A stretch of 58,914 bases of DNA from a bacterium (GTDB lineage: Bacteria; Patescibacteriota; Minisyncoccia; UBA6257; JAGOQP01): NCBI GenBank assembly GCA_021814445.1, contig JAKAIF010000002.1, positions 1 through 58,914 of the forward strand, read 5' to 3'. A program made the position numbers and the translations under genes. Below the pieces are notes generated by a model. The model was not told the origin of the DNA. It ran no database searches and saw only the letters and a list, made by a program, of their open reading frames with translations. Each line of letters starts with the position of its first letter. The first letter of the stretch is position 1. Positions 4,187-56,327 of this stretch are shown one piece after another.

Positions 4187-4975
4187 ATGTCTATTTTACA
4201 CACAATCATTTTAGGAATTGTTGAGGGAGTTACTGAGTTTTTACCCATATCTTCAACCGCCCATCTCATTATTGCTTCGCGTGTATTACATATTGCACAA
4301 AGTGATTTCATGAAGACGTTTGAAATTGTGATTCAACTGGGGGCTATTGCTGCGGTCGCGGCATTGTATTTTAAAACACTCATCACAAAACCAAAGCTTA
4401 TTGGAAAAATTTTAGCGGCGTTTATCCCCACGTCTATTATTGGATTGGCGGTATATTCGTTCGCAAAAAAATATCTTCTGGGGAATTTATCTGTCACTGT
4501 GTGGGCCTTGGTATTGGGAGGAATAGGTATTATTCTTTTTGAAATATATTCAGAAAAAAAATTTGGTGCACAGGAGACATCTTCTAAAGAATTAGAGGAA
4601 TCTATTTCATATCCAGCGGCGCTCTGGATGGGAATATGTCAGGCAGTTGCAATTATTCCGGGAGTTTCGCGATCTGCGGCGACTATTTTAGGAGGACGTG
4701 CGCTTGGTATTACTCGCAAAGAAGTGGTTGAATTTTCGTTTTTACTCGCGGCGCCCACCATGTTTGCGGCAGCAGCTCTTGATATATATAAAAATCCTCA
4801 GGCGATCTCGGGGGATAATATAGTACTTATTGGCATTGGTCTTGTGGTTTCATTTGTGGTTGCTTATATGAGCATGAAGTGGTTACTAAAATATATACAG
4901 ACTCATTCATTCAAAGTGTTTGGCGTATATAGAATTATTGTGGGTATTGTGGTCTGGATATTGTTTCTAAGATAG
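4187..4975 (+). CDS. uppP: Undecaprenyl-diphosphatase
   Basis: ILGIVEGVTEFLPISSTAHL and PGVSRSAATI motifs. Start moved to ATG 4187, because the track start is a GTG inside a heptad tract. Confidence 0.9.
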   Translation: MSILHTIILGIVEGVTEFLPISSTAHLIIASRVLHIAQSDFMKTFEIVIQLGAIAAVAALYFKTLITKPKLIGKILAAFIPTSIIGLAVYSFAKKYLLGNLSVTVWALVLGGIGIILFEIYSEKKFGAQETSSKELEESISYPAALWMGICQAVAIIPGVSRSAATILGGRALGITRKEVVEFSFLLAAPTMFAAAALDIYKNPQAISGDNIVLIGIGLVVSFVVAYMSMKWLLKYIQTHSFKVFGVYRIIVGIVVWILFLR

Positions 4976-4976
4976 T

Positions 4977-5930
4977 ATGCATAAAGGATTTTGGGAAAAA
5001 TTAAATAAGCCTATTTTTGCGCTTGCTCCTATGCATGACGTGACCGACGCTGCGTTTCGACATCTCATAGCAGACGTAGCAAAACCAGATGTGTTATTCA
5101 CGGAATTTGTTGCGGTAGATGGGCTGGTGCACCTCGCCTCACAAGAAAAAATGATTCAACATTATTTTCAATATAGTGAAGAGGAGCGCCCCCTCGTTGC
5201 TCAGGTATGGGGAAACAATCCACAACATTTTTTTGAATCAGCTCAGCTTGTAGAAAAATTAAAGTTTGATGGTATTGATATTAACATGGGATGCCCCGAC
5301 AAACAGGTGGTGAAATTAGGAGGAGGTGCGGCGCTTATGCAAAATCCATCACTTGCGTTAGAAATTATCAAAGCAACTCAAGAAGCAACACAACTTCCTG
5401 TTTCTATAAAAACGCGCATAGGATTCGATACTATAGATCTTTCATTTATACAGAAGATATCTGAGGCTCTACCCGTTGCAATTACGATTCACGGACGCAC
5501 GAAAAAAGAAATGTCATCAGTTCCGACTCATTGGGATGTTATTGCCCATATCGCGCCAGAATTACAAGAGAAGGGGATTCTCGTTTTGGGAAATGGGGAT
5601 ATTTCTAGTTATCAAGACGCGCAGGAAAAAATAAAGTTATCAGGGGTGGATGGAGTTATGATTGGACGTGGGGTATTTGGAAATCCATGGATTTTTTCAA
5701 AAGAGGCGCGTGAAGTTTCTCTTCATGATAAACTTATCGTATTACGTCATCACGTAGAATTATTTGAAAAAATATTTGGAAAGACAAAAGATTTTTCAGT
5801 TATAAAAAAACATGTACGAGGATATGTGCATGGTTTTGATGGCGCAAAAGAAATGAGGAGTGAAATTATGGAATCAAAAACTGCATCTCAGATGATGCAA
5901 GTTCTAGAAACTCTCATTCAAAAACAATAG
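4977..5930 (+). CDS. dus: tRNA-dihydrouridine synthase
   Basis: LAPMHDVTD, DINMGCPDKQVVKLGGGAALM, HGRTK motifs. Confidence 0.9.
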   Translation: MHKGFWEKLNKPIFALAPMHDVTDAAFRHLIADVAKPDVLFTEFVAVDGLVHLASQEKMIQHYFQYSEEERPLVAQVWGNNPQHFFESAQLVEKLKFDGIDINMGCPDKQVVKLGGGAALMQNPSLALEIIKATQEATQLPVSIKTRIGFDTIDLSFIQKISEALPVAITIHGRTKKEMSSVPTHWDVIAHIAPELQEKGILVLGNGDISSYQDAQEKIKLSGVDGVMIGRGVFGNPWIFSKEAREVSLHDKLIVLRHHVELFEKIFGKTKDFSVIKKHVRGYVHGFDGAKEMRSEIMESKTASQMMQVLETLIQKQ

Positions 5931-5931
5931 A

Positions 5932-6555
5932 TTATGTTTCTATAAATTGTTTTAAAATCTGAAAGTCTTTAAAGAGTTGTTCTCTGGTGGTAGTGTTATA
6001 AATGGATGCGGCTGGATGATACATGGGAATAATAGTCACAGGAAACGATACCAAAGAACCCGAGGTATGAATGGTTCCATGGAGTACGCTAATGGGTTTT
6101 AGTTCATACTCCAATCCAAATCGTTTCATAATATACGCCATAGAGAATCTTCCGAGAGTAACAATTATTTTGGGCCTAATAATTTCTATTTGTCTATCAA
6201 GAAAGGGGGCATAGAGCTCTATCTCTTCTGGTTCGGGGTCTCTATTATTTTGCGGACGATCTTTTACAATATTGGTGATGTACACATCTTCACGTTTAAT
6301 GTGGACGCTTTCTAGAAGTTTGTCTAGAATCTTTCCTGCCGCACCACAAAACGGGCGACCTGTTTGAGCCTCATTCTTCCCCGGAGCTTCTCCAATAAAC
6401 ATGAACGTCGCATAGTGATTTCCTTGCCCCACTACGGGGAAATAATTATTTTGCGTGCGATATTCATATAAGGGAGATTGGGTAAGCGATAATAATTCAT
6501 CGCGTATCTCACGTAATTTTTCATCTCGTTGGTCTAACGTATGCGCCTCACTCAT
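5932..6555 (-). CDS. Uracil-DNA glycosylase, family 4-like (no Cys cluster)
   Basis: GEAPGKNEAQTGRPFCGAAGKILD motif and C-terminal HPA motif. The N-terminal CxxC of canonical family 4 is absent. Confidence 0.8.
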   Translation of the reverse strand: MSEAHTLDQRDEKLREIRDELLSLTQSPLYEYRTQNNYFPVVGQGNHYATFMFIGEAPGKNEAQTGRPFCGAAGKILDKLLESVHIKREDVYITNIVKDRPQNNRDPEPEEIELYAPFLDRQIEIIRPKIIVTLGRFSMAYIMKRFGLEYELKPISVLHGTIHTSGSLVSFPVTIIPMYHPAASIYNTTTREQLFKDFQILKQFIET

Positions 6556-6564
6556 AATACGATA

Positions 6565-6573
6565 AGTATATCA
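6565..6573 (-). promoter_or_regulatory. TGATATACT extended -10 box, 9 nt upstream of the udg ATG
   Basis: Minus strand reads TTATGATATACTTATCGTATTATG. Confidence 0.45.
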
Positions 6574-6599
6574 TAAAATTTGTTCACAGTAGTGTTTAT

Positions 6600-6608
6600 T
6601 GATATACT
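6600..6608 (+). promoter_or_regulatory. TGATATACT extended -10 box, 6 nt upstream of ATG 6615
   Basis: TTATTGATATACTAACCGCATG. No SD. Confidence 0.45.
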
Positions 6609-6614
6609 AACCGC

Positions 6615-7361
6615 ATGTCATTTTATCAAAAATTTTCTCGCACATTTGAACCAGGAAAACCGTTCAATTTTAGTCGTTCAAAATTAGAATCATTTATTAA
6701 ATGCCCGCGTTGTTTCTATCTAGATAGGCGATTGGGGATTGGTCAACCAGCGGGGTTCCCGTTTACTCTAAATTCCGCAGTGGATGCTCTTTTTAAAACA
6801 GAATTTGATGTTCATCGCGCCCACCAAACTCCTCATCCGCTCATGAAAACGTATCATGTAGACGCAGTACCGTTTCAGCACGAGATGATGGATACCTGGC
6901 GAGAAACGTTCCAGGGAGTGCGGTATTATCACGAACCTACGAAGTTGACTATTTTTGGAGCCGTGGATGATATTTGGGTGAATCCGAAAGGAGAATTGCT
7001 TGTTGTCGATTATAAAGCGACAAGCACGAGTTCTGAGATAACGATGGACGCGGAATATCGTCAGGGATATAAGAGACAGATGGAAATTTACCAATGGTTG
7101 CTCCGCAAGAATGGATTCACTGTTTCTAACGAGGGATACTTTGTGTATGCAAATGGAAGAAAAGACAAAGAAGCATTTGATGGAAAGCTTGAATTTGATG
7201 TGCAGGTTATCCCCTATGTGGGGGATGATTCATGGGTAGAGCAATCAATTATAGATGCACATGCCTGTATGTCGGGAGACGTGATTCCCGATTCCACGGA
7301 CGGATGTGAATATTGTGAATATAGAAAAAAAGCAGCTCAGGTGGAAAAATGGAGTGTATAA
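6615..7361 (+). CDS. RecB/Cas4-like PD-(D/E)XK nuclease with 4-Cys cluster
   Basis: CPRCFY...VVDYKATS...QMEIYQWLL...CEYCEY. Confidence 0.75.
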   Translation: MSFYQKFSRTFEPGKPFNFSRSKLESFIKCPRCFYLDRRLGIGQPAGFPFTLNSAVDALFKTEFDVHRAHQTPHPLMKTYHVDAVPFQHEMMDTWRETFQGVRYYHEPTKLTIFGAVDDIWVNPKGELLVVDYKATSTSSEITMDAEYRQGYKRQMEIYQWLLRKNGFTVSNEGYFVYANGRKDKEAFDGKLEFDVQVIPYVGDDSWVEQSIIDAHACMSGDVIPDSTDGCEYCEYRKKAAQVEKWSV

Positions 7362-7415
7362 TATATATACGTTATACACTAGAAGATAAATATTATATAC
7401 GAATACTATCAATAA

Positions 7416-7447
7416 TCATTCAACGATTGACGCTAATCGTTGAATGA
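7416..7447. repeat. 32-nt palindrome family, copy 1
   Basis: TCATTCAACGATTGACGCTAATCGTTGAATGA. Overlaps the -35 zone of the downstream regulator gene. Confidence 0.85.
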
Positions 7448-7476: not shown

Positions 7477-7743
7477 ATGAAAAGATGGGTTTACATATTT
7501 AAAATATTCTCAAATTTTAATAGAGTAAGCATTGTTAAGTTGCTTATGGGAAAGAAACCTATGACCGTAAGTGATATCTCCGATGAATTGCATATTTCAC
7601 TTGCTTCAACATCAAAACATCTTATTATTCTTGATAGACTAGATGTATTGAATAGTACAGGGAGAGCAGGACATGTTTTTTATGAAATCAATAGAAACAT
7701 GCCGAAGGATATAAAGAAGGTGATAGATATTTTCCTTTCATAA
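7477..7743 (+). CDS. ArsR/SmtB-like winged-helix transcriptional regulator
   Basis: RVSIVKLLMGKKPMTVSDISDELHISLASTSKHLIILDRLDVL matches the ArsR HTH pattern. Confidence 0.6.
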   Translation: MKRWVYIFKIFSNFNRVSIVKLLMGKKPMTVSDISDELHISLASTSKHLIILDRLDVLNSTGRAGHVFYEINRNMPKDIKKVIDIFLS

Positions 7744-7750
7744 AACAAAA

Positions 7751-7790
7751 CTATCCATTCAACGATTGACGCTAATCGTTGAATGGATAG
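7751..7790. repeat. Palindrome family, copy 2 (40-nt extended arms)
   Basis: CTATCCATTCAACGATTGACGCTAATCGTTGAATGGATAG, 8 nt after the regulator stop. Confidence 0.85.
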
Positions 7791-7839: not shown

Positions 7840-8565
7840 ATGAAGATTCATCGCTTTTTTCTTAATACGGGGTTTCTAGAGGGAGAGATGTCTATTACTG
7901 ATAATGAACTTATTCATCAAATGAGGGATGTATTAAAACTTCATGATGGGGAAAAATGTGTATTGTTTAACGCTGCCGAGCAAGAGGCTCACGCGCATAT
8001 ACTACAATGTGATATAAACGGAGTCACATTATCTGTAGAAAAAATAATACAGAAAAGCGAGCAAAAAACAAAAATTACACTTTATTGCGCAATCTTAAAG
8101 CGAGAGAATTTTGAATTAGTGGTACAAAAAGCAACAGAGCTAGGAGTACATGAAATTGTTCCCATTATCACACAACGAACCGTAAAAACAGGACTCAAAC
8201 ATGAAAGGCTTGAGAAAATAGCAACTGAAGCAACTGAGCAATCAGGACACACATACATTCCAGTAATACAAAAACCAATTTTGTTTAGTGATGCATTGCA
8301 TAAAGCGCAAGATCATACACGTGTTGTTGTATTGCATACCGAAATATCACAGGGAGATAATTCATTTTCAAACACTGAAAGTATTGCTTCAATAGGAGTA
8401 TTTGTGGGCCCAGAAGGAGGATTCACGCAAGAAGAAATCCAACAAGCAAAAGAATATCGCTATTCTATACACACCTTTCCGCACATGGTTCTCCGTGCGG
8501 AAACCGCAGCTATCATAGGAGTATTTTGGGCACACAATTTGTTTATGACAAATAATATGGACTAG
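7840..8565 (+). CDS. rsmE: 16S rRNA (uracil1498-N3)-methyltransferase
   Basis: MKIHRFF start and VGPEGGFTQEE motif. Confidence 0.85.
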   Translation: MKIHRFFLNTGFLEGEMSITDNELIHQMRDVLKLHDGEKCVLFNAAEQEAHAHILQCDINGVTLSVEKIIQKSEQKTKITLYCAILKRENFELVVQKATELGVHEIVPIITQRTVKTGLKHERLEKIATEATEQSGHTYIPVIQKPILFSDALHKAQDHTRVVVLHTEISQGDNSFSNTESIASIGVFVGPEGGFTQEEIQQAKEYRYSIHTFPHMVLRAETAAIIGVFWAHNLFMTNNMD

Positions 8566-35738: not shown

Positions 35739-36263
35739 TTATAATTCAGTAATGTGTTGCACCTTTTTTGTACGATCAGTAAACAAGACTCCGTTTAAGT
35801 GATCTATCTCATGCTGCATAATGCGAGCGAGAAGTCCACGTACAGAAATTGATATCGGACGATTATTTTTATCTACCCCTTTTACATGAATAGAATAAAA
35901 ACGCTCCACATCACCACACAATCCAGGAATACTTAAACACCCCTCTTGATCAGACCATTTTTTTTCAGATACACGCACAATCTGCGGATTAAAAATTGCA
36001 TAAAATTTTCCTTGATATCCCTGACCCTTAGGAAGGGGAAGTTGACAAACAAATAAACGAATGGGGAGTCCGATCTGATTTGCAGAAAGTCCCACGCCGT
36101 TTTCAAGAACCATCAGGCGTCGCATATGTTTTATTAACTCATCAAGATCTTTACGAGGAGTACTCTTTACATCAAAATCAGAAACGGGAGTACGTAAAAA
36201 TTTCTCATACTGAGCATTGGCGACGGTCCACACAAAAGAATTATCTGTATTAAAAATACTCAT
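35739..36263 (-). CDS. def: Peptide deformylase
   Basis: GLSANQIG, EGCLSIPG, QHEIDHLNG motifs. Confidence 0.95.
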   Translation of the reverse strand: MSIFNTDNSFVWTVANAQYEKFLRTPVSDFDVKSTPRKDLDELIKHMRRLMVLENGVGLSANQIGLPIRLFVCQLPLPKGQGYQGKFYAIFNPQIVRVSEKKWSDQEGCLSIPGLCGDVERFYSIHVKGVDKNNRPISISVRGLLARIMQHEIDHLNGVLFTDRTKKVQHITEL

Positions 36264-36264
36264 G

Positions 36265-36516
36265 TTATTTATTTTCTTTCATCATGCGCATAAAATATGC
36301 TCCCTTGTTTTGTACATTTTCCCGTGTGGCAATATCTTTTGCAATTTGAAGCAATCGGTCTCCGTTCTTTGTTTTTGCTAGTTTCATATACAAAGCAATG
36401 TGCTCCCGGTCATTCAATAATTCAGCCAGTTCAAGCCCCACAGACTGGTGTTTTTGATATATATGACTCTTTGAGGCACGATCTTGAAGAGTTTTAAGAT
36501 ATTCGGGAACGAGCAT
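36265..36516 (-). CDS. Hypothetical 83-aa helical protein, first gene of the def-fmt operon
   Basis: ORF 1 nt upstream of def. No family recognised. Confidence 0.5.
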   Translation of the reverse strand: MLVPEYLKTLQDRASKSHIYQKHQSVGLELAELLNDREHIALYMKLAKTKNGDRLLQIAKDIATRENVQNKGAYFMRMMKENK

Positions 36517-36629
36517 ACATAAATCCTATACCATACCACCTAAAACGGCAATATGAGTTCAAAAAAGACATATTTTGCACATCAAGAAACAGAATGATAC
36601 AATATACACAATTATTTTATATACGAAAT

Positions 36630-37898
36630 ATGCAAATAAAACAAAAACCCATTCACATTAGAAAAATTATTGAAATAGTAGTCGTGGTTCTGCTTATTGT
36701 TGCAGCTCTTACGTTTGGGTATGTTTCTGGTGTTTCTCAAGGAGAAAAAAATACTAAAAATATTATTGTACAAGGGGTCACCAATCCACAGAAAAATGAA
36801 TCACCAATTAGCTTTGATCAATTTTGGGAGGTATGGAATCTTCTGAAAACAAAATATGTTTCTAAAGAAGGAGCGGGGGACAATCAAAAATTATTATTTG
36901 GAGCCATTGATGGATTAGTGGGTTCCCTGAAAGATCCCTACACCACATTCTTTCCCCCACAAGAAGCAAAAAGTTTTTCTGATGAAATATCAGGACAATT
37001 TGGAGGTATTGGCGCTGAAATTGGATTGGATAAACAAGGAAGACTTATTGTGATTGCACCACTAAAAGATACCCCCGCCGAACGCGCAGGTTTAAAAGCA
37101 GGGGACCGTATTGTGCAAATTGATACACTAGATACCACAGGGCTTTCTTCCGAGGAGGCGGTGAAACACATTCGTGGAGAACGGGGGACAAAAGTTACTC
37201 TCATGATTATTCACGATGAAAAAGAGGGAGAGAAAAAAGTTGAAATAACAAGAGATATCATTCAAGTTCCCACATTAGAATTTAAATTAGTAAACAACGA
37301 AGGAAAAGAAGATTCACGAGGATCTATTGCATATATTAAACTTGATAATTTCTATGAAAAAGCACCATCGTTGTTTCAACAAGCAGCGATAAAAACAATA
37401 TTACTGGGAGCAAAAGGAATTGTTCTTGATCTACGAAACAATCCCGGAGGATATTTAGACGGTGCGCAATCAATTGCAGGATGGTTCCTTCCCAAAAATG
37501 ATCTCGTGGTAAGCGAAGCATTTCAAGATCCCGCGCTCACACAAAAATTATTTTCACAAGGACCAAGCTCATTAGACAATAAACCCGTTGTTGTTCTTAT
37601 TAATAAAGGATCAGCATCTGCATCTGAAATTCTTGCGGGAGCTCTCCAGGATCATAAGAAGGCAACATTAGTAGGAGAAAAAAGTTTTGGAAAAGGAACA
37701 GTGCAAGAAGTGATTCCTCTTAAAGAAGGTATGCTGAAAGTGACTATTGCCCATTGGCTTACCCCAAATGGAAATCTCATAGATAAGAATGGTATACAAC
37801 CCGACATTACCTTTACCGAACCCGCCAGCACAACGCCTGTGGGCACTGATCCGTGGATGGAACAAGCAATTACTGTATTAGTAGAAAAAATGAAATAA
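36630..37898 (+). CDS. ctpA: S41 carboxy-terminal processing protease with PDZ domain
   Basis: GGIGAEI, DLRNNPGG, GSASASEI, GKGTVQ motifs. Confidence 0.9.
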   Translation: MQIKQKPIHIRKIIEIVVVVLLIVAALTFGYVSGVSQGEKNTKNIIVQGVTNPQKNESPISFDQFWEVWNLLKTKYVSKEGAGDNQKLLFGAIDGLVGSLKDPYTTFFPPQEAKSFSDEISGQFGGIGAEIGLDKQGRLIVIAPLKDTPAERAGLKAGDRIVQIDTLDTTGLSSEEAVKHIRGERGTKVTLMIIHDEKEGEKKVEITRDIIQVPTLEFKLVNNEGKEDSRGSIAYIKLDNFYEKAPSLFQQAAIKTILLGAKGIVLDLRNNPGGYLDGAQSIAGWFLPKNDLVVSEAFQDPALTQKLFSQGPSSLDNKPVVVLINKGSASASEILAGALQDHKKATLVGEKSFGKGTVQEVIPLKEGMLKVTIAHWLTPNGNLIDKNGIQPDITFTEPASTTPVGTDPWMEQAITVLVEKMK

Positions 37899-37899
37899 C

Positions 37900-38370
37900 A
37901 TGAAAGTATTATTACTCTCATCTATTCCCAAAATAGGTCAGAAGGGAGAACTTATTACCGTCTCCGACGGATACGCAAAAAACGCCCTATTCCCAAAAAA
38001 ATTGGCGGTCGCTGCAACACCAGGTATGATTCATGATTGGGAAGAGAAAAAACAAAAAGAAGCAATTCAAAAAGAAGAACGAAAAGAGATCATTAAGAAA
38101 ATCATTCCAGAAATTCAAAAACATATTTTTGCATTTACAGTGAAGACAGGAAAAACAAGCGAGGTATTCACCTCAATTCATCAAGAAGAAATTCAAAATG
38201 CGCTGGCTCAATTTCTTATGGCACAAAGCAAACTCTTAGGAAATGAAGATATTCATCTTGAATTAAAACCTATAAAAGAGTTGGGAGATCATGAGATTCA
38301 AATCCGTATTGGAAGAGAAGAACATATACAAAAAACGTATACCCACATACAAATCAATGCGGAAAAATAG
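37900..38370 (+). CDS. rplI: 50S ribosomal protein L9
   Basis: MKVLLL...GQKGELITVSDGYAKNALFPKKLA. Confidence 0.9.
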   Translation: MKVLLLSSIPKIGQKGELITVSDGYAKNALFPKKLAVAATPGMIHDWEEKKQKEAIQKEERKEIIKKIIPEIQKHIFAFTVKTGKTSEVFTSIHQEEIQNALAQFLMAQSKLLGNEDIHLELKPIKELGDHEIQIRIGREEHIQKTYTHIQINAEK

Positions 38371-44173: not shown

Positions 44174-44230
44174 TGCGGGATCGCCCGCCTCCTGCATGCG
44201 CAGGCATGGTGCAGGCAGGTCTAATGGTAG
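44174..44230 (+). pseudogene. Displaced 5' fragment of tRNA-Gln (nt 1-21) interrupted by a 35-nt GC-rich hairpin
   Basis: TGCGGGATCG (10/10 match) and GTCTAATGGTAG (12/12 match) to the intact tRNA at 44501-44521, in the same order. Confidence 0.65.
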
Positions 44231-44244
44231 AAGCCCCAACTTCC

Positions 44245-44493
44245 ATGTGGTACGTTTATATGCTAAAAAGTAACACGAGAAATTGGTACTACGTAGGAAG
44301 CACAAATGATGTAGAAAGAAGAGAAAAAGAACATAAACATGGACTAGTAAAATCAACTCGCAATCATCGTCCACTAGTAAAATGTTTTGTAAGAATGTTC
44401 GAGACAGAGAAAGAAGCAAGATTATACGAACAAAAATTAAAAAAATGTAGAAGAGAAAAAGAAGGGATAATAAAAAATATAATTAATTCGTGA
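44245..44493 (+). CDS. GIY-YIG nuclease domain protein (UPF0213/YhbQ-like)
   Basis: MWYVYMLKS...WYYVGSTNDVERREKEH...E...E pattern. The track start at 44137 reads through the tRNA fragment. Confidence 0.8.
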   Translation: MWYVYMLKSNTRNWYYVGSTNDVERREKEHKHGLVKSTRNHRPLVKCFVRMFETEKEARLYEQKLKKCRREKEGIIKNIINS

Positions 44494-46709: not shown

Positions 46710-46949
46710 ATGTGGTATATCTATATTCTTAAATGCAAAGATGGGAGTTTATATACTGGTATCACCACAGATGTATCACGGCGTTTTAATGAACACAAAA
46801 ATAAAACTGGCGGACACTACACCCGCTCTCACCCCGTGAAATCTATTGTATATACCGAAAGAGTAAGAACACAATCCAAAGCGCTCAAACGAGAACATCA
46901 GATAAAAAATCTCAAAAGAGAGGGAAAATTAAAACTTATTAAGAATTGA
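46710..46949 (+). CDS. GIY-YIG nuclease domain protein (UPF0213/YhbQ-like), second copy
   Basis: MWYIYILKCKDGSLYTGITTDVSRRFNEH...E...E. Confidence 0.85.
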   Translation: MWYIYILKCKDGSLYTGITTDVSRRFNEHKNKTGGHYTRSHPVKSIVYTERVRTQSKALKREHQIKNLKREGKLKLIKN

Positions 46950-49135: not shown

Positions 49136-50110
49136 TTATTTTATAGAAAAATCTTTGTATTCTTCTGACACGCTCCCAAACCAGTCTTCCTTAAATTCAA
49201 TGTGAGATCCCACAGGTCCAACCGATATTCGCGCGAGAAACTCTTGCAATTGAGGAAGTTTTCCTTGCCCAATAATTTCTACTCTATTTTCATCAGTATT
49301 TCTAGAAAAACCAGTGATATTAAGCGTTTGAGCGCAATCTTGAGCAAAAGCTCTAAAACCGACGTTTTGAACGGCCCCAGACGCCCAAAAGTGTAATTCC
49401 ACGTCTTTATCTAAATCGTCCAAATTAAGGGCATTTTTGAGCGAAAAAAAGCCTATTTTAGCCCGTTCTAGGGCATTTACATATCCCCCGGTTCCCAATA
49501 GCACCCCCAAATCACGGGCAAAACTTCGTATATAAAAACCAGAGGAAACAACAAGTGTCATGGTAATATATATGAGATCATTTTTTTCTTGTATTGATTC
49601 AATCTGATATGCAAGAAGAGAAACCTTTTTAGCAGAAATAGAGAGACTCTCCCCTGCTCTTTTTCGCGTATACGCAGGTTTTCCTTGAATCTTTATTGCC
49701 GAATATTGTGGAGGAGTTTGTGTTTCTTGATTTTTTAATGTTTCTATTGCCGATGCTATTTTTCCCTTCCATTCAACGATTGACGTCAATCGTTGAATGG
49801 TTCCAACGCCGTTATCTTCGTGTGTGTTTGGTATTTTTTGTATAATACCCGTACGATCATCTGTGTCCGATGACGCTCCTAATATAATTTCCACTCTATA
49901 TTCTTTTGTCGTGTGTAATAATTGATGACTTAATAATTTTGTATACGCGCGCGAAACACCTACCACCAAAAGACCTGATGCAAATGGATCAAGAGTTCCT
50001 CCATGTCCCACGCGTATATCGCGAGGTATCAAAAGTGCCCGCTTTACATGATTTAAGAATTGAGCAGAGCTTGGTCCCGAAGGTTTATAAAATAAAAAAA
50101 GTCCCTGCAT
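49136..50110 (-). CDS. truB: tRNA pseudouridine-55 synthase fused to a C-terminal acylphosphatase-like domain
   Basis: KPSGPSS, GHGGTLDP, TPPQYSAIKIQG motifs, then HFWASGAVQNVGFRAFA...VEIIGQG (acylphosphatase signature). Confidence 0.85.
   Translation of the reverse strand: MQGLFLFYKPSGPSSAQFLNHVKRALLIPRDIRVGHGGTLDPFASGLLVVGVSRAYTKLLSHQLLHTTKEYRVEIILGASSDTDDRTGIIQKIPNTHEDNGVGTIQRLTSIVEWKGKIASAIETLKNQETQTPPQYSAIKIQGKPAYTRKRAGESLSISAKKVSLLAYQIESIQEKNDLIYITMTLVVSSGFYIRSFARDLGVLLGTGGYVNALERAKIGFFSLKNALNLDDLDKDVELHFWASGAVQNVGFRAFAQDCAQTLNITGFSRNTDENRVEIIGQGKLPQLQEFLARISVGPVGSHIEFKEDWFGSVSEEYKDFSIK
49769..49800. repeat. Palindrome family, copy 4: perfect 32-mer in frame inside truB
   Basis: CCATTCAACGATTGACGTCAATCGTTGAATGG, translated as TIQRLTSIVEW. 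Confidence 0.9.
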
Positions 50111-54142: not shown

Positions 54143-54269
54143 GCCGATGATCCTGACGTTCATCGGGACAACCCATCTCTTACGAAGGGATTACTCCCTG
54201 CCTACGCAGGCAGGGAGTAATTGCCTGTCCCATTACATACGAAGTATGTTTCGGGAAAGCTACATCGGC
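54143..54269 (-). ncRNA. Structured GC-enriched element upstream of tRNA-Thr (unclassified)
   Basis: Nested helices: GCCGATG/CATCGGC, GGGACA/TGTCCC, perfect 13-bp ATTACTCCCTGCC/GGCAGGGAGTAAT, ACATAC/GTATGT. Confidence 0.3.
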
Positions 54270-56289: not shown

Positions 56290-56327
56290 TATCCATTCGC
56301 CAATTCGCGCGAATTGGCGAATGGATA
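56290..56327. repeat. Palindrome family, variant copy 5
   Basis: TATCCATTCGCCAATTCGCGCGAATTGGCGAATGGATA. Shares its outer ATCCATTC/GAATGGAT arms with copy 2. Confidence 0.7.

What the first reader, a model, noticed from the sequence alone, without database searches (positions are those of the whole stretch)
49769..49800. Perfect 32-nt palindromic repeat inserted in frame inside truB
CCATTCAACGATTGACGTCAATCGTTGAATGG is a perfect palindrome and belongs to a family otherwise found in intergenic spacers (7416, 7751, 14034, and a variant at 56290). Here it lies inside the TruB catalytic domain and is read through as G-TIQRLTSIVEW-KG without a stop. It sits just upstream of the conserved ...TPPQYSAIKIQG segment. 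In-frame invasion of coding sequence by palindromic repeats is known for Rickettsia palindromic elements. I am not aware of it being described for CPR-like genomes or for such a short element.
Basis: partly seen in the sequence, partly recalled or inferred. Interest (0 to 1): 0.7.

Follow-up and report, generated by a model that had tools for sequence, protein, structure and literature searches.

The report
Regulator-linked palindrome translated inside truB
A perfect 32-base palindrome really is read through in frame inside the tRNA-modifying enzyme TruB of a Paceibacteria (CPR) genome, but it belongs to a tiny family of sites that always bracket a small ArsR-type regulator gene, so it looks like a regulator binding site caught in a protein loop rather than a Rickettsia-style invasive repeat.

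Summary
CCATTCAACGATTGACGTCAATCGTTGAATGG (49769-49800) is a perfect palindrome inside an intact truB gene. It encodes T104-W114, at a disordered surface loop and the first turn of a helix. Most TruB proteins lack these roughly 12-14 residues.

The RPE-like reading is only partly supported.
- The family is very small: five copies in the window and four in a related genome.
- Copies sit at orthologous places in that relative, which is about 77% identical in DNA.
- In all six lineages examined, copies flank an 88-aa ArsR/SmtB-type winged-helix gene on both sides.
- All copies share an invariant core, C-N-ATT-NN-CG-NN-AAT-N-G. In three lineages the core overlaps a likely -35 box.

The truB copy is old and shared by a subclade. 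Between the window and its relative it is 32/32 identical, while the codons just upstream have diverged. One orthologue carries the family's second sequence type at the same site. Others carry decayed or partly deleted copies.

Best reading (about 0.45): it is an operator-type site of that regulator, embedded in coding sequence. Rivals are a REP-like selfish palindrome and an RNA hairpin. Protein binding is untested.

The parts
49769..49800 (.). Perfect 32-bp palindrome (type 1) inside truB. With the preceding base it forms codons T104-W114, read on the minus strand.
   Evidence: As RNA the hairpin folds at -20.9 kcal/mol; the 91-nt context has z = -5.1.
49136..50110 (-). truB gene for tRNA pseudouridine-55 synthase, with a C-terminal acylphosphatase domain. 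It is intact on both sides of the palindrome.
   Evidence: Pfam and NCBIfam. AF2 model with mean pLDDT 92.6. Foldseek matches TruB structures 1k8w, 1r3e and 2ab4.
49769..49831 (-). Variable loop region of TruB (about residues 94-114). Residues 96-104 have pLDDT below 50, and the helix starts at residue 111.
7416..7447 (.). Family copy 30 nt upstream of the ArsR-type gene, next to an AT-rich TATAAT region. Putative autoregulatory operator.
7477..7743 (+). 88-aa ArsR/SmtB/SdpR-like winged-helix regulator, bracketed by two family copies.
   Evidence: Pfam HTH_5 at 2.9e-8. NCBIfam ArsR/SmtB and SdpR, below cut-off. Homologues and their flanks.
7747..7790 (.). Family copy (core 7755-7786, with palindromy extended to 40+ nt) between the regulator gene and rsmE.
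14029..14072 (.). Family copy (core 14035-14066) flanked by A6/T6, between the convergent 3' ends of rsmI-like and tgt genes.
   Evidence: The orthologous copy in the relative is shown.
56290..56327 (.). Type-2 family member (CCATTCGCCAATTCGC|GCGAATTGGCGAATGG, core 56293-56324), 11 nt upstream of the start codon of a Laminin_G_3 gene.

Best explanation
The palindrome is one member of a small family of dyad-symmetric sites. These are most likely the DNA operators of the 88-aa ArsR/SmtB-type winged-helix regulator encoded at 7477-7743.

A dimer of that protein would read the invariant core C-N-ATT-NN-CG-NN-AAT-N-G. At its own gene the site overlaps the promoter, which gives autorepression. Other copies lie beside or inside RNA-modification genes.

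One copy became part of the truB coding sequence in an ancestor of this Paceibacteria subclade. It is in the only open frame and in a disordered surface loop, where the extra residues are tolerated. Since then it has been held at the DNA level, or re-copied from other family members, in some lineages. In others it has been left to decay.

Inside truB a bound regulator would act as an intragenic roadblock or auxiliary operator.

Shown here: the anatomy, the link to the regulator gene, the conserved core, the symmetry-preserving changes, the DNA-level conservation and the loop position. Inferred: that the protein binds the site, and that binding affects truB.
For: 1. Link to the regulator gene. 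The regulator has only 11 homologues with E <= 0.001 in 5.8 billion clusters. In all six lineages whose DNA was read, the gene has a family palindrome upstream and another downstream, in three unrelated gene neighbourhoods. The lineages are the window, L109, L105/L106, L107, L108 and L110-113.
2. Conserved core. Nine columns are invariant across 23 sites (C13, A15, T16, T17, C20, G21, A24, A25, T26; a tenth, G28, is kept in at least 90%). The motif with at most 1 mismatch found all family members and only 2 other places in the 15 stretches scanned, about 165 kb.
3. Promoter overlap. In L107, L108 and L110 the TTG of the core is followed after 17-19 nt by TATAAT or TATATT, just before the regulator's start codon. 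This comes from reading the sequences.
4. Kept symmetry. 14 of 18 pairs change on both sides and 82% of cells are paired, against 23-47% when the partner column is slid.
5. Conservation inside truB. The window and the relative JBAYWE01 are 72.7% identical in TruB protein and 77% in DNA. The palindrome is 32/32 identical, whereas no other ungapped 32-mer window of the gene exceeds 31/32. The codons just upstream have diverged and carry indels.
6. Type switch. In L022 (P0005) the same codon position carries the second family type. By my hand count of the sequences printed, 8 of 10 diagnostic positions are type 2 (not a tool tally). Type 2 matches the window's 56290 copy.
7. Neighbouring genes. 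The window has 5 RNA-modification genes among about 60. Type-1 copies touch rsmE, rsmI/tgt and truB here, and dus in JBAYWE01. A rough post-hoc P is 0.001-0.002.
Against: - No binding data exist.
- The 14035 copy lies between convergent 3' ends and looks like a bidirectional terminator, not an operator.
- No promoter-like context exists around the truB copy.
- Palindromy extends beyond the core with a different sequence in each copy: CCCT/AGGG, A6/T6, GGTGTA/TACACC. A dimer binding only the core would not need this.
- JBAYWE01 has lost the regulator gene at the syntenic site by a clean deletion. No close homologue from that MAG appeared. Yet its palindromes are intact, and it has one extra copy.
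- The association with RNA-modification genes was noticed after the fact.
- The regulator scores below the curated NCBIfam cut-offs.
Confidence: 0.45

Rival explanations
1. It is a selfish or passively copied REP-like palindromic element. A 32-40 bp hairpin unit is occasionally duplicated to new places, for example by template switching or an unknown enzyme. One copy landed in frame in a tolerant TruB loop. The winged-helix gene flanked by two copies would then be a REPtron-like cassette or a preferred neighbour, not a regulator of truB.
For: - Presence/absence differences. JBAYWE01 has a copy in a 118-nt spacer between uppP and dus, where the window has a 1-nt spacer.
- The regulator gene plus one palindrome is cleanly missing in JBAYWE01 relative to L109, as expected from recombination between the flanking copies.
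- The insert-bearing TruBs were never monophyletic in 100 NJ bootstraps. The 12-sequence clade had 100% support, so at least 2 gain or loss events are needed.
- All 32 nt, not only the core, are shared among copies in the window lineage.
- Type replacement at the truB site.
- Intragenic short REPs are a known phenomenon (PMC3733652).
Against: - Only 4-5 copies per genome.
- Copies sit at orthologous sites in genomes about 77% identical in DNA.
- No GTAG or CGTC end tag, no target-site duplication, and no RAYT or other transposase in the 59-kb window.
- The invariant core co-occurs with one particular regulator gene across distant lineages in which the outer arms differ.
Confidence: 0.27
2. It acts as an RNA hairpin. 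A perfect palindrome gives the same stem-loop whichever strand is transcribed. It could serve as a terminator or stabiliser in UTRs, or as a processing or pausing signal inside the truB mRNA. It might co-regulate RNA-modification enzymes after transcription.
For: - A strong hairpin: -20.9 kcal/mol in the window and -33.6 kcal/mol (20 bp) in JBAYWE01 truB, with z = -5.1.
- Stems are extended with copy-specific sequence.
- The A6/T6 flanks at 14035 and the terminator-like calls at 7416 and 7750.
- The central 4-6 nt are the most variable part, as in a loop.
- The same element lies next to or inside rsmE, rsmI, tgt, truB and dus.
Against: - The most conserved positions are sequence-specific and sit next to the loop, which points to a protein-read core.
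- In type-2 lineages the upstream copies lie before the -10 box and would not be transcribed.
- No U-tract follows the truB copy on either strand.
- No Rfam family matches.
Confidence: 0.18
3. It is a chance palindrome or a misassembly.
For: None found.
Against: Zero matches in 100 shuffles. The same sequence sits at the same codon position in three independent assemblies.
Confidence: 0.01

Closest known systems
Repetitive extragenic palindromes (REPs, GTAG- or CGTC-tagged), including intragenic REPs (Di Nocera et al. 2013, PMC3733652)
   Same: A short (20-40 bp) palindrome, mostly between genes and often at the 3' ends of convergent genes. It is occasionally read through in frame inside a known protein. 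One gene is flanked by copies, which is formally like a REPtron.
   Different: It has no GTAG or CGTC tag at an end. The stem is 14-20 bp, against 5-13 bp. There are only 4-5 copies. The flanked gene is a winged-helix regulator, not a RAYT tyrosine transposase. Copies are positionally conserved between species.
Rickettsia palindromic elements (RPE; summarised in PMC10969869, and from my own knowledge of Ogata et al. 2000)
   Same: Palindromic DNA inserted in frame in a housekeeping enzyme. It is tolerated because it encodes a surface segment.
   Different: RPEs are about 100-150 bp, come in many families with dozens of copies, and have invaded many unrelated genes. Here the element is 32 bp, only one gene is invaded, and the family is tied to a regulator gene.
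Operators of ArsR/SmtB/SdpR-type autorepressors (own knowledge: imperfect 12-2-12 inverted repeats overlapping the promoter of the regulator's own operon)
   Same: A small winged-helix repressor-like protein. A dyad-symmetric site of about 26-32 bp lies just upstream of its own gene and overlaps the -35. A second site lies before the next gene.
   Different: No metal-binding or sensing residues were identified. The sites are perfect and longer palindromes. Additional copies lie at 3' ends and inside a coding sequence. Binding has not been shown.
Intragenic operators and roadblocks (own knowledge: lac O2 inside lacZ; CcpA or PurR roadblock sites inside ORFs)
   Same: A repressor site inside a coding sequence that must satisfy both protein coding and protein binding.
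   Different: Those sites use pre-existing codons. Here the site is an added, translated segment. No promoter-proximal partner operator was found upstream of truB.

Membership tests
TruB (tRNA pseudouridine-55 synthase) | Passes the curated equivalog model; has the catalytic Asp in the GTLDP motif; has the TruB fold | tested here: met
   TIGR00431 at 157.4 bits against a 151.45 cut-off. D41 is invariant in the 32-sequence alignment. Foldseek matches 1k8w, 1r3e and 2ab4 with probability 1.00.
Rickettsia palindromic elements (RPE) | Element length of about 100-150 bp | tested here: not met
   The core is 32 bp, or at most 40-44 bp with copy-specific extensions.
Rickettsia palindromic elements (RPE) | Many copies, inserted in frame in many unrelated genes | tested here: not met
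   There are 5 copies in the window, with 1 in a CDS. There are 4 pattern matches in the JBAYWE01 genome, with 1 in a CDS.
REP (GTAG/CGTC super-families) | A GTAG or CGTC tetranucleotide tagging one end of the stem | tested here: not met
   The ends are CCATTC and GAATGG. CGTC occurs only at the centre, and the one nearby GTAG (after the 7755 copy) is not shared by other copies.
REP (GTAG/CGTC super-families) | Short 20-40 bp palindrome, mostly extragenic, often between convergent or tandem genes | tested here: met
REP / REPtron | Association with a RAYT (Y1 HUH) transposase flanked by the repeats | tested here: not met
   The flanked gene is an HTH_5 winged-helix protein. No transposase domain was found among the window's genes.
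MITE | Terminal inverted repeats around an internal segment, plus target-site duplications; length 70-300 bp | tested here: not met
   The whole unit is a single palindrome, and no direct repeats flank any copy.
ArsR/SmtB-type repressor with its operators | The regulator is a member of the ArsR/SmtB winged-helix family | tested here: inconclusive
   Pfam HTH_5 at 33.9 bits, above the 22-bit cut-off. NCBIfam NF033788 at 49 bits against 55, and SdpR at 41.8 against 100, both below cut-off.
ArsR/SmtB-type repressor with its operators | A dyad-symmetric site at or overlapping the promoter of the regulator's own gene | tested here: met
   An upstream copy exists in all six lineages. In L107, L108 and L110 the TTG of the core is followed after 17-19 nt by TATAAT or TATATT. 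In the window the consensus scan was ambiguous.
ArsR/SmtB-type repressor with its operators | The protein binds the site and represses transcription | not testable with these tools
   This needs EMSA, footprinting or a reporter assay.

The most novel reading that the evidence does not exclude
A small ArsR-type regulator of Paceibacteria controls a set of RNA-modification genes (rsmE, rsmI, tgt, truB, dus) through 32-bp dyads. One of these is a true dual-coding element: an operator that is also translated as a loop of TruB. Selection or directed copying keeps it in step with the regulator's site type across lineages. A variant reading is that the unit [palindrome - winged-helix gene - palindrome] is a new REPtron-like module in which a DNA-binding protein, not a transposase, maintains a palindrome family.
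Probability: 0.2. Interest if true: 0.8.

Novelty: new variant of a known kind. Interest (0 to 1): 0.55.

Why it matters
Gene regulation in CPR/Patescibacteria is almost unexplored. If this reading holds, the locus offers a concrete regulator-and-site pair that can be tested in vitro, a candidate regulon of RNA-modification enzymes, and a rare case where a DNA-level signal and a protein loop share the same 32 bases. The site is visibly constrained at the DNA level. If instead it is a REP-like element, it extends in-frame palindrome insertion to CPR genomes, and to a family linked to a winged-helix gene rather than a transposase.

Tried and rejected
- Metagenome scan for TruB relatives.
- Viral-contig scans with both palindrome types. 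There were 3 non-palindromic chance matches and 0 matches. No phage link.
- Plasmid and phage tblastn with the regulator. Only distant ArsR/SdpR proteins at 35% identity or less.
- Consensus promoter and terminator scans around the window copies. Ambiguous in this AT-rich DNA. There is no promoter context at the truB copy.
- Rfam and tRNA scans. Nothing at any palindrome.
- A search of the protein database with the 14-aa palindrome peptide, to find other invaded genes.
- Second regulator gene. tblastn with all 11 homologues found only the one gene in the window and none in the held JBAYWE01 loci.
- REP tags, MITE anatomy, intron or bypass removal. All rejected: there are no end tags and no target-site duplication, and 32 nt is not a multiple of 3 while the frame is continuous.
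- An argument that the three changes in the P0013 truB copy move towards the type-1b state. I dropped it, because positions 14-15 next to the centre vary freely in all copies.
- Classing P0004 as type 2. This is weak: my hand count on the sequence gives 18 against 16 of 32 matches. P0012 rests on its peptide only. Only L022 (P0005) is a firm type-2 case.

Full report
**1. Observation**

The 32-mer at 49769-49800 is its own reverse complement. Allowing 3 mismatches it has three copies in the window, where 100 dinucleotide-preserving shuffles gave none. A fourth copy lies at 7416-7447. A variant with the same outer arms (CCATTC...GAATGG) but a different interior lies at 56290-56327.

The palindrome lies in the minus-strand ORF 49136-50110. 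This ORF is TruB_N + TruB_C_2 + a C-terminal acylphosphatase domain. It passes the curated TruB equivalog cut-off. The palindrome is translated as TIQRLTSIVEW, residues 104-114. Only one of the three frames through the palindrome is open, and that frame is the one used.

Misassembly is excluded. The identical protein is on four contigs. The same palindrome lies at the same codon position in NCBI MAG JBAYWE01, labelled Candidatus Paceibacterota (32/32), and in a Logan contig (31/32).

**2. Is it an insertion, and where in the protein?**

In an alignment of 32 TruBs, the loop between the strand after the SSDTDD motif and the helix K-I-x-x-A-I-E has 14 residues in 20 sequences and 13 in one. It has 28 residues in the window and 18-28 in P0002-5 and P0012-14. 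M. tuberculosis TruB (1sgv) shows gaps of 5 and 10 residues at this place.

The AlphaFold2 model has mean pLDDT 92.6. Residues 96-104 fall below 50 and the block 101-110 averages 50. A helix begins at residue 111. The model matches solved TruB structures. The palindrome therefore encodes the end of a disordered surface loop and the first turn of a helix. I could not measure its distance from the RNA-binding cleft.

**3. History of the truB copy**

The 12 closest TruBs form a clade with 100% NJ bootstrap support. The eight insert-bearing members were never monophyletic in 100 replicates. At least two gain or loss events are therefore needed, although NJ on 203 columns is crude.

At the DNA level:
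- The window, JBAYWE01 and L002 have perfect or 31/32 type-1 palindromes. In JBAYWE01 the palindromy extends to 40 nt and the hairpin folds at -33.6 kcal/mol.
- L003 (P0013) has three changes in one arm.
- L021 (P0004) and L024 (P0014) are decayed.
- L023 (P0003) has lost four codons.
- L022 (P0005) has TTGTTCGCCAATTTAC|GCGAATTAGCGAACAA.

I compared the L022 copy by hand with the sequences printed, over the ten positions that distinguish the window's type 1 from its 56290 type 2. Eight positions are in the type-2 state. The same codon position thus carries two different family types in different lineages.

Between the window and JBAYWE01, TruB is 72.7% identical in protein and 77% in DNA. The palindrome is 32/32 identical, while no other ungapped 32-mer window of the gene exceeds 31/32. 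The codons just upstream have diverged and carry indels. Synonymous identity alone is weaker evidence: 9 of 9 codons against a background of 0.65, P about 0.02.

**4. The family and its neighbours**

A scan of GTDB species representatives with a 19-base pattern found several copies in only one genome, JBAYWE01. Its four copies all lie in regions syntenic with this window.
- Two are orthologous to window copies, in truB and between rsmI and tgt.
- One lies in a 118-nt spacer between uppP and dus, where the window has a 1-nt spacer.
- One is a single copy at the place where the window has an 88-aa gene bracketed by two copies.

That gene (7477-7743) is an ArsR/SmtB/SdpR-like winged-helix protein. 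It has only 11 homologues with E <= 0.001 in 5.8 billion clusters.

I read the DNA around homologues from five further lineages. In every case a palindrome lies upstream and another downstream of the gene:
- L109: type 1.
- L105/L106: CCATTCTACGATTAGC|GCTAATCGTAGAATGG.
- L107: GACCAATTCGC|GCGAATTGGAG, in both copies.
- L108: GGACCAATTCGC|GCGAATTGGTC, in three copies, in an RhuM/NYN/DNA-methyltransferase/ResIII neighbourhood.
- L110-113: CCCGGTGTACAATTCGC|GCGAATTGTACACCGGG, plus a second copy.

Across 23 sites, nine columns are invariant and a tenth (G28) is kept in at least 90% of sites. Together these give C-N-ATT-NN-CG-NN-AAT-N-G. This motif, with at most 1 mismatch, recovered the family and only two other places in the 15 stretches scanned, about 165 kb.

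Symmetry is kept through change. 14 of 18 pairs change on both sides and 82% of cells pair, against 23-47% with slid partners.

In L107, L108 and L110 the TTG of the core is followed after 17-19 nt by TATAAT or TATATT, just before the start codon (read). This is the arrangement of an autorepressor operator over a -35 box.

JBAYWE01 differs from its close relative L109 by a clean deletion of exactly one palindrome plus the regulator gene.

**5. Mechanism**

The best-supported reading is that the family are the operators of this winged-helix regulator, and that the truB copy is such a site embedded in coding sequence. The position in a tolerant loop and the single open frame explain why it can be translated. 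The DNA-level conservation and the type switch show that something acts on the DNA or RNA sequence, not only on the peptide. That something could be selection for binding, or copying from other family members.

In the window only five of about 60 genes are RNA-modification genes. Type-1 copies touch rsmE, rsmI/tgt and truB here, and dus in JBAYWE01. A rough post-hoc P is 0.001-0.002. This hints at a regulon.

What a bound regulator would do inside truB (roadblock or auxiliary operator) is inference.

**6. What does not fit**

- The 14035 copy sits between convergent 3' ends with A6/T6 flanks, like a bidirectional terminator.
- Copy-specific extensions of the stem are not needed by a core-binding dimer. 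They suggest hairpin selection or palindrome growth by template switching.
- JBAYWE01 keeps perfect palindromes although the regulator gene is deleted at the syntenic site.
- No close homologue from that MAG appeared. The MAG may be incomplete.

Two rivals therefore stay open: a low-copy REP-like element with a REPtron-like cassette, and an RNA hairpin function.

**7. Comparison with known systems**

- Short REPs inside ORFs are already described, and RPE-4 and RPE-6 are CGTC REPs (PMC3733652).
- RPEs proper are about 150 bp and have invaded many genes (PMC10969869).
- This family fails the defining REP features (end tag, RAYT, high copy number) and the RPE features (length, many host genes).
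- It matches the anatomy of ArsR-type operator sets, but binding is untested.
- I found no paper describing such elements in Patescibacteria. The library is limited, so this is not proof of absence.

**8. Verdict**

The feature is a new variant of known kinds: an intragenic palindromic repeat, or an intragenic operator. Interest is moderate to fairly high, because it gives a testable regulator-and-site pair in a CPR genome and an unusual dual-use sequence.

Noticed in passing
window 49136-49420 (C-terminal about 85 residues of TruB): TruB is fused to a complete acylphosphatase domain (Pfam 6e-17; Foldseek TM about 0.9 to solved acylphosphatases). Only a partial TruB_C_2 match (positions 1-42 of 66) precedes it. 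The fusion is shared by dozens of Paceibacteria TruBs. In P0009 and P0012-14 the precomputed Pfam list shows no acylphosphatase hit.
   Followed up: partly
window 5932-7447, compared with L009 4017-5517 and L106: The UDG-PDDEXK gene pair is inverted in the window relative to JBAYWE01 and L106. One breakpoint abuts the 7416 palindrome. No palindrome was seen at the other breakpoint.
   Followed up: partly
L009 5486-5517, compared with L109 250-640: JBAYWE01 lacks the ArsR-type gene. It has one 'solo' palindrome whose left flank matches L109's upstream copy and whose right flank matches L109's downstream copy. This is a clean deletion (or insertion) of the unit [palindrome + gene].
   Followed up: yes
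L009 2936-3053, compared with window 4975-4977: JBAYWE01 has a 118-nt spacer with a family palindrome between uppP and dus. In the window the two genes are 1 nt apart. The flanks of that copy are themselves partly inverted repeats.
   Followed up: partly
window 4977-5930, 7840-8565, 13215-14009, 14109-15272, 49136-50110: All five RNA-modification genes of the window (dus, rsmE, rsmI-like, tgt, truB) are next to or contain a type-1 palindrome in this genome or in JBAYWE01. Post-hoc P is about 0.001-0.002.
   Followed up: partly
window 23560-23601 and 54190-54221: Two further long perfect palindromes, unrelated in sequence and without A/T tracts: CTACAACATTCTCACATTCTT|AAGAATGTGAGAATGTTGTGG, and ATTACTCCCTGCCTAC|GCAGGCAGGGAGTAAT next to tRNA-Thr. 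Most other palindromes in the window look like ordinary bidirectional terminators.
   Followed up: no
window about 36000-38000: GC skew changes from positive to negative and cumulative skew peaks here. Gene orientation shifts as well. This may be a replication terminus, or simply a strand-bias effect of gene orientation.
   Followed up: no
window 44206-44493 and 46710-46949: Two small stand-alone GIY-YIG domain ORFs (95 and 79 aa) lie within 2.5 kb of each other, near tRNA-Gln.
   Followed up: no
L108 5337-12282: In a distant lineage the homologous winged-helix gene and three copies of its palindrome sit among RhuM, an NYN-domain gene, a 731-aa N6/N4 DNA methyltransferase and a ResIII helicase. 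This suggests that the regulator family can also control restriction-modification or defence genes.
   Followed up: no
alignment A1, columns about 134-150 (P0018, P0022, P0010): Other Paceibacteria TruBs have unrelated extra residues in the same loop (for example NIECKDKKNGVRRV). The loop therefore accepts insertions in general.
   Followed up: no
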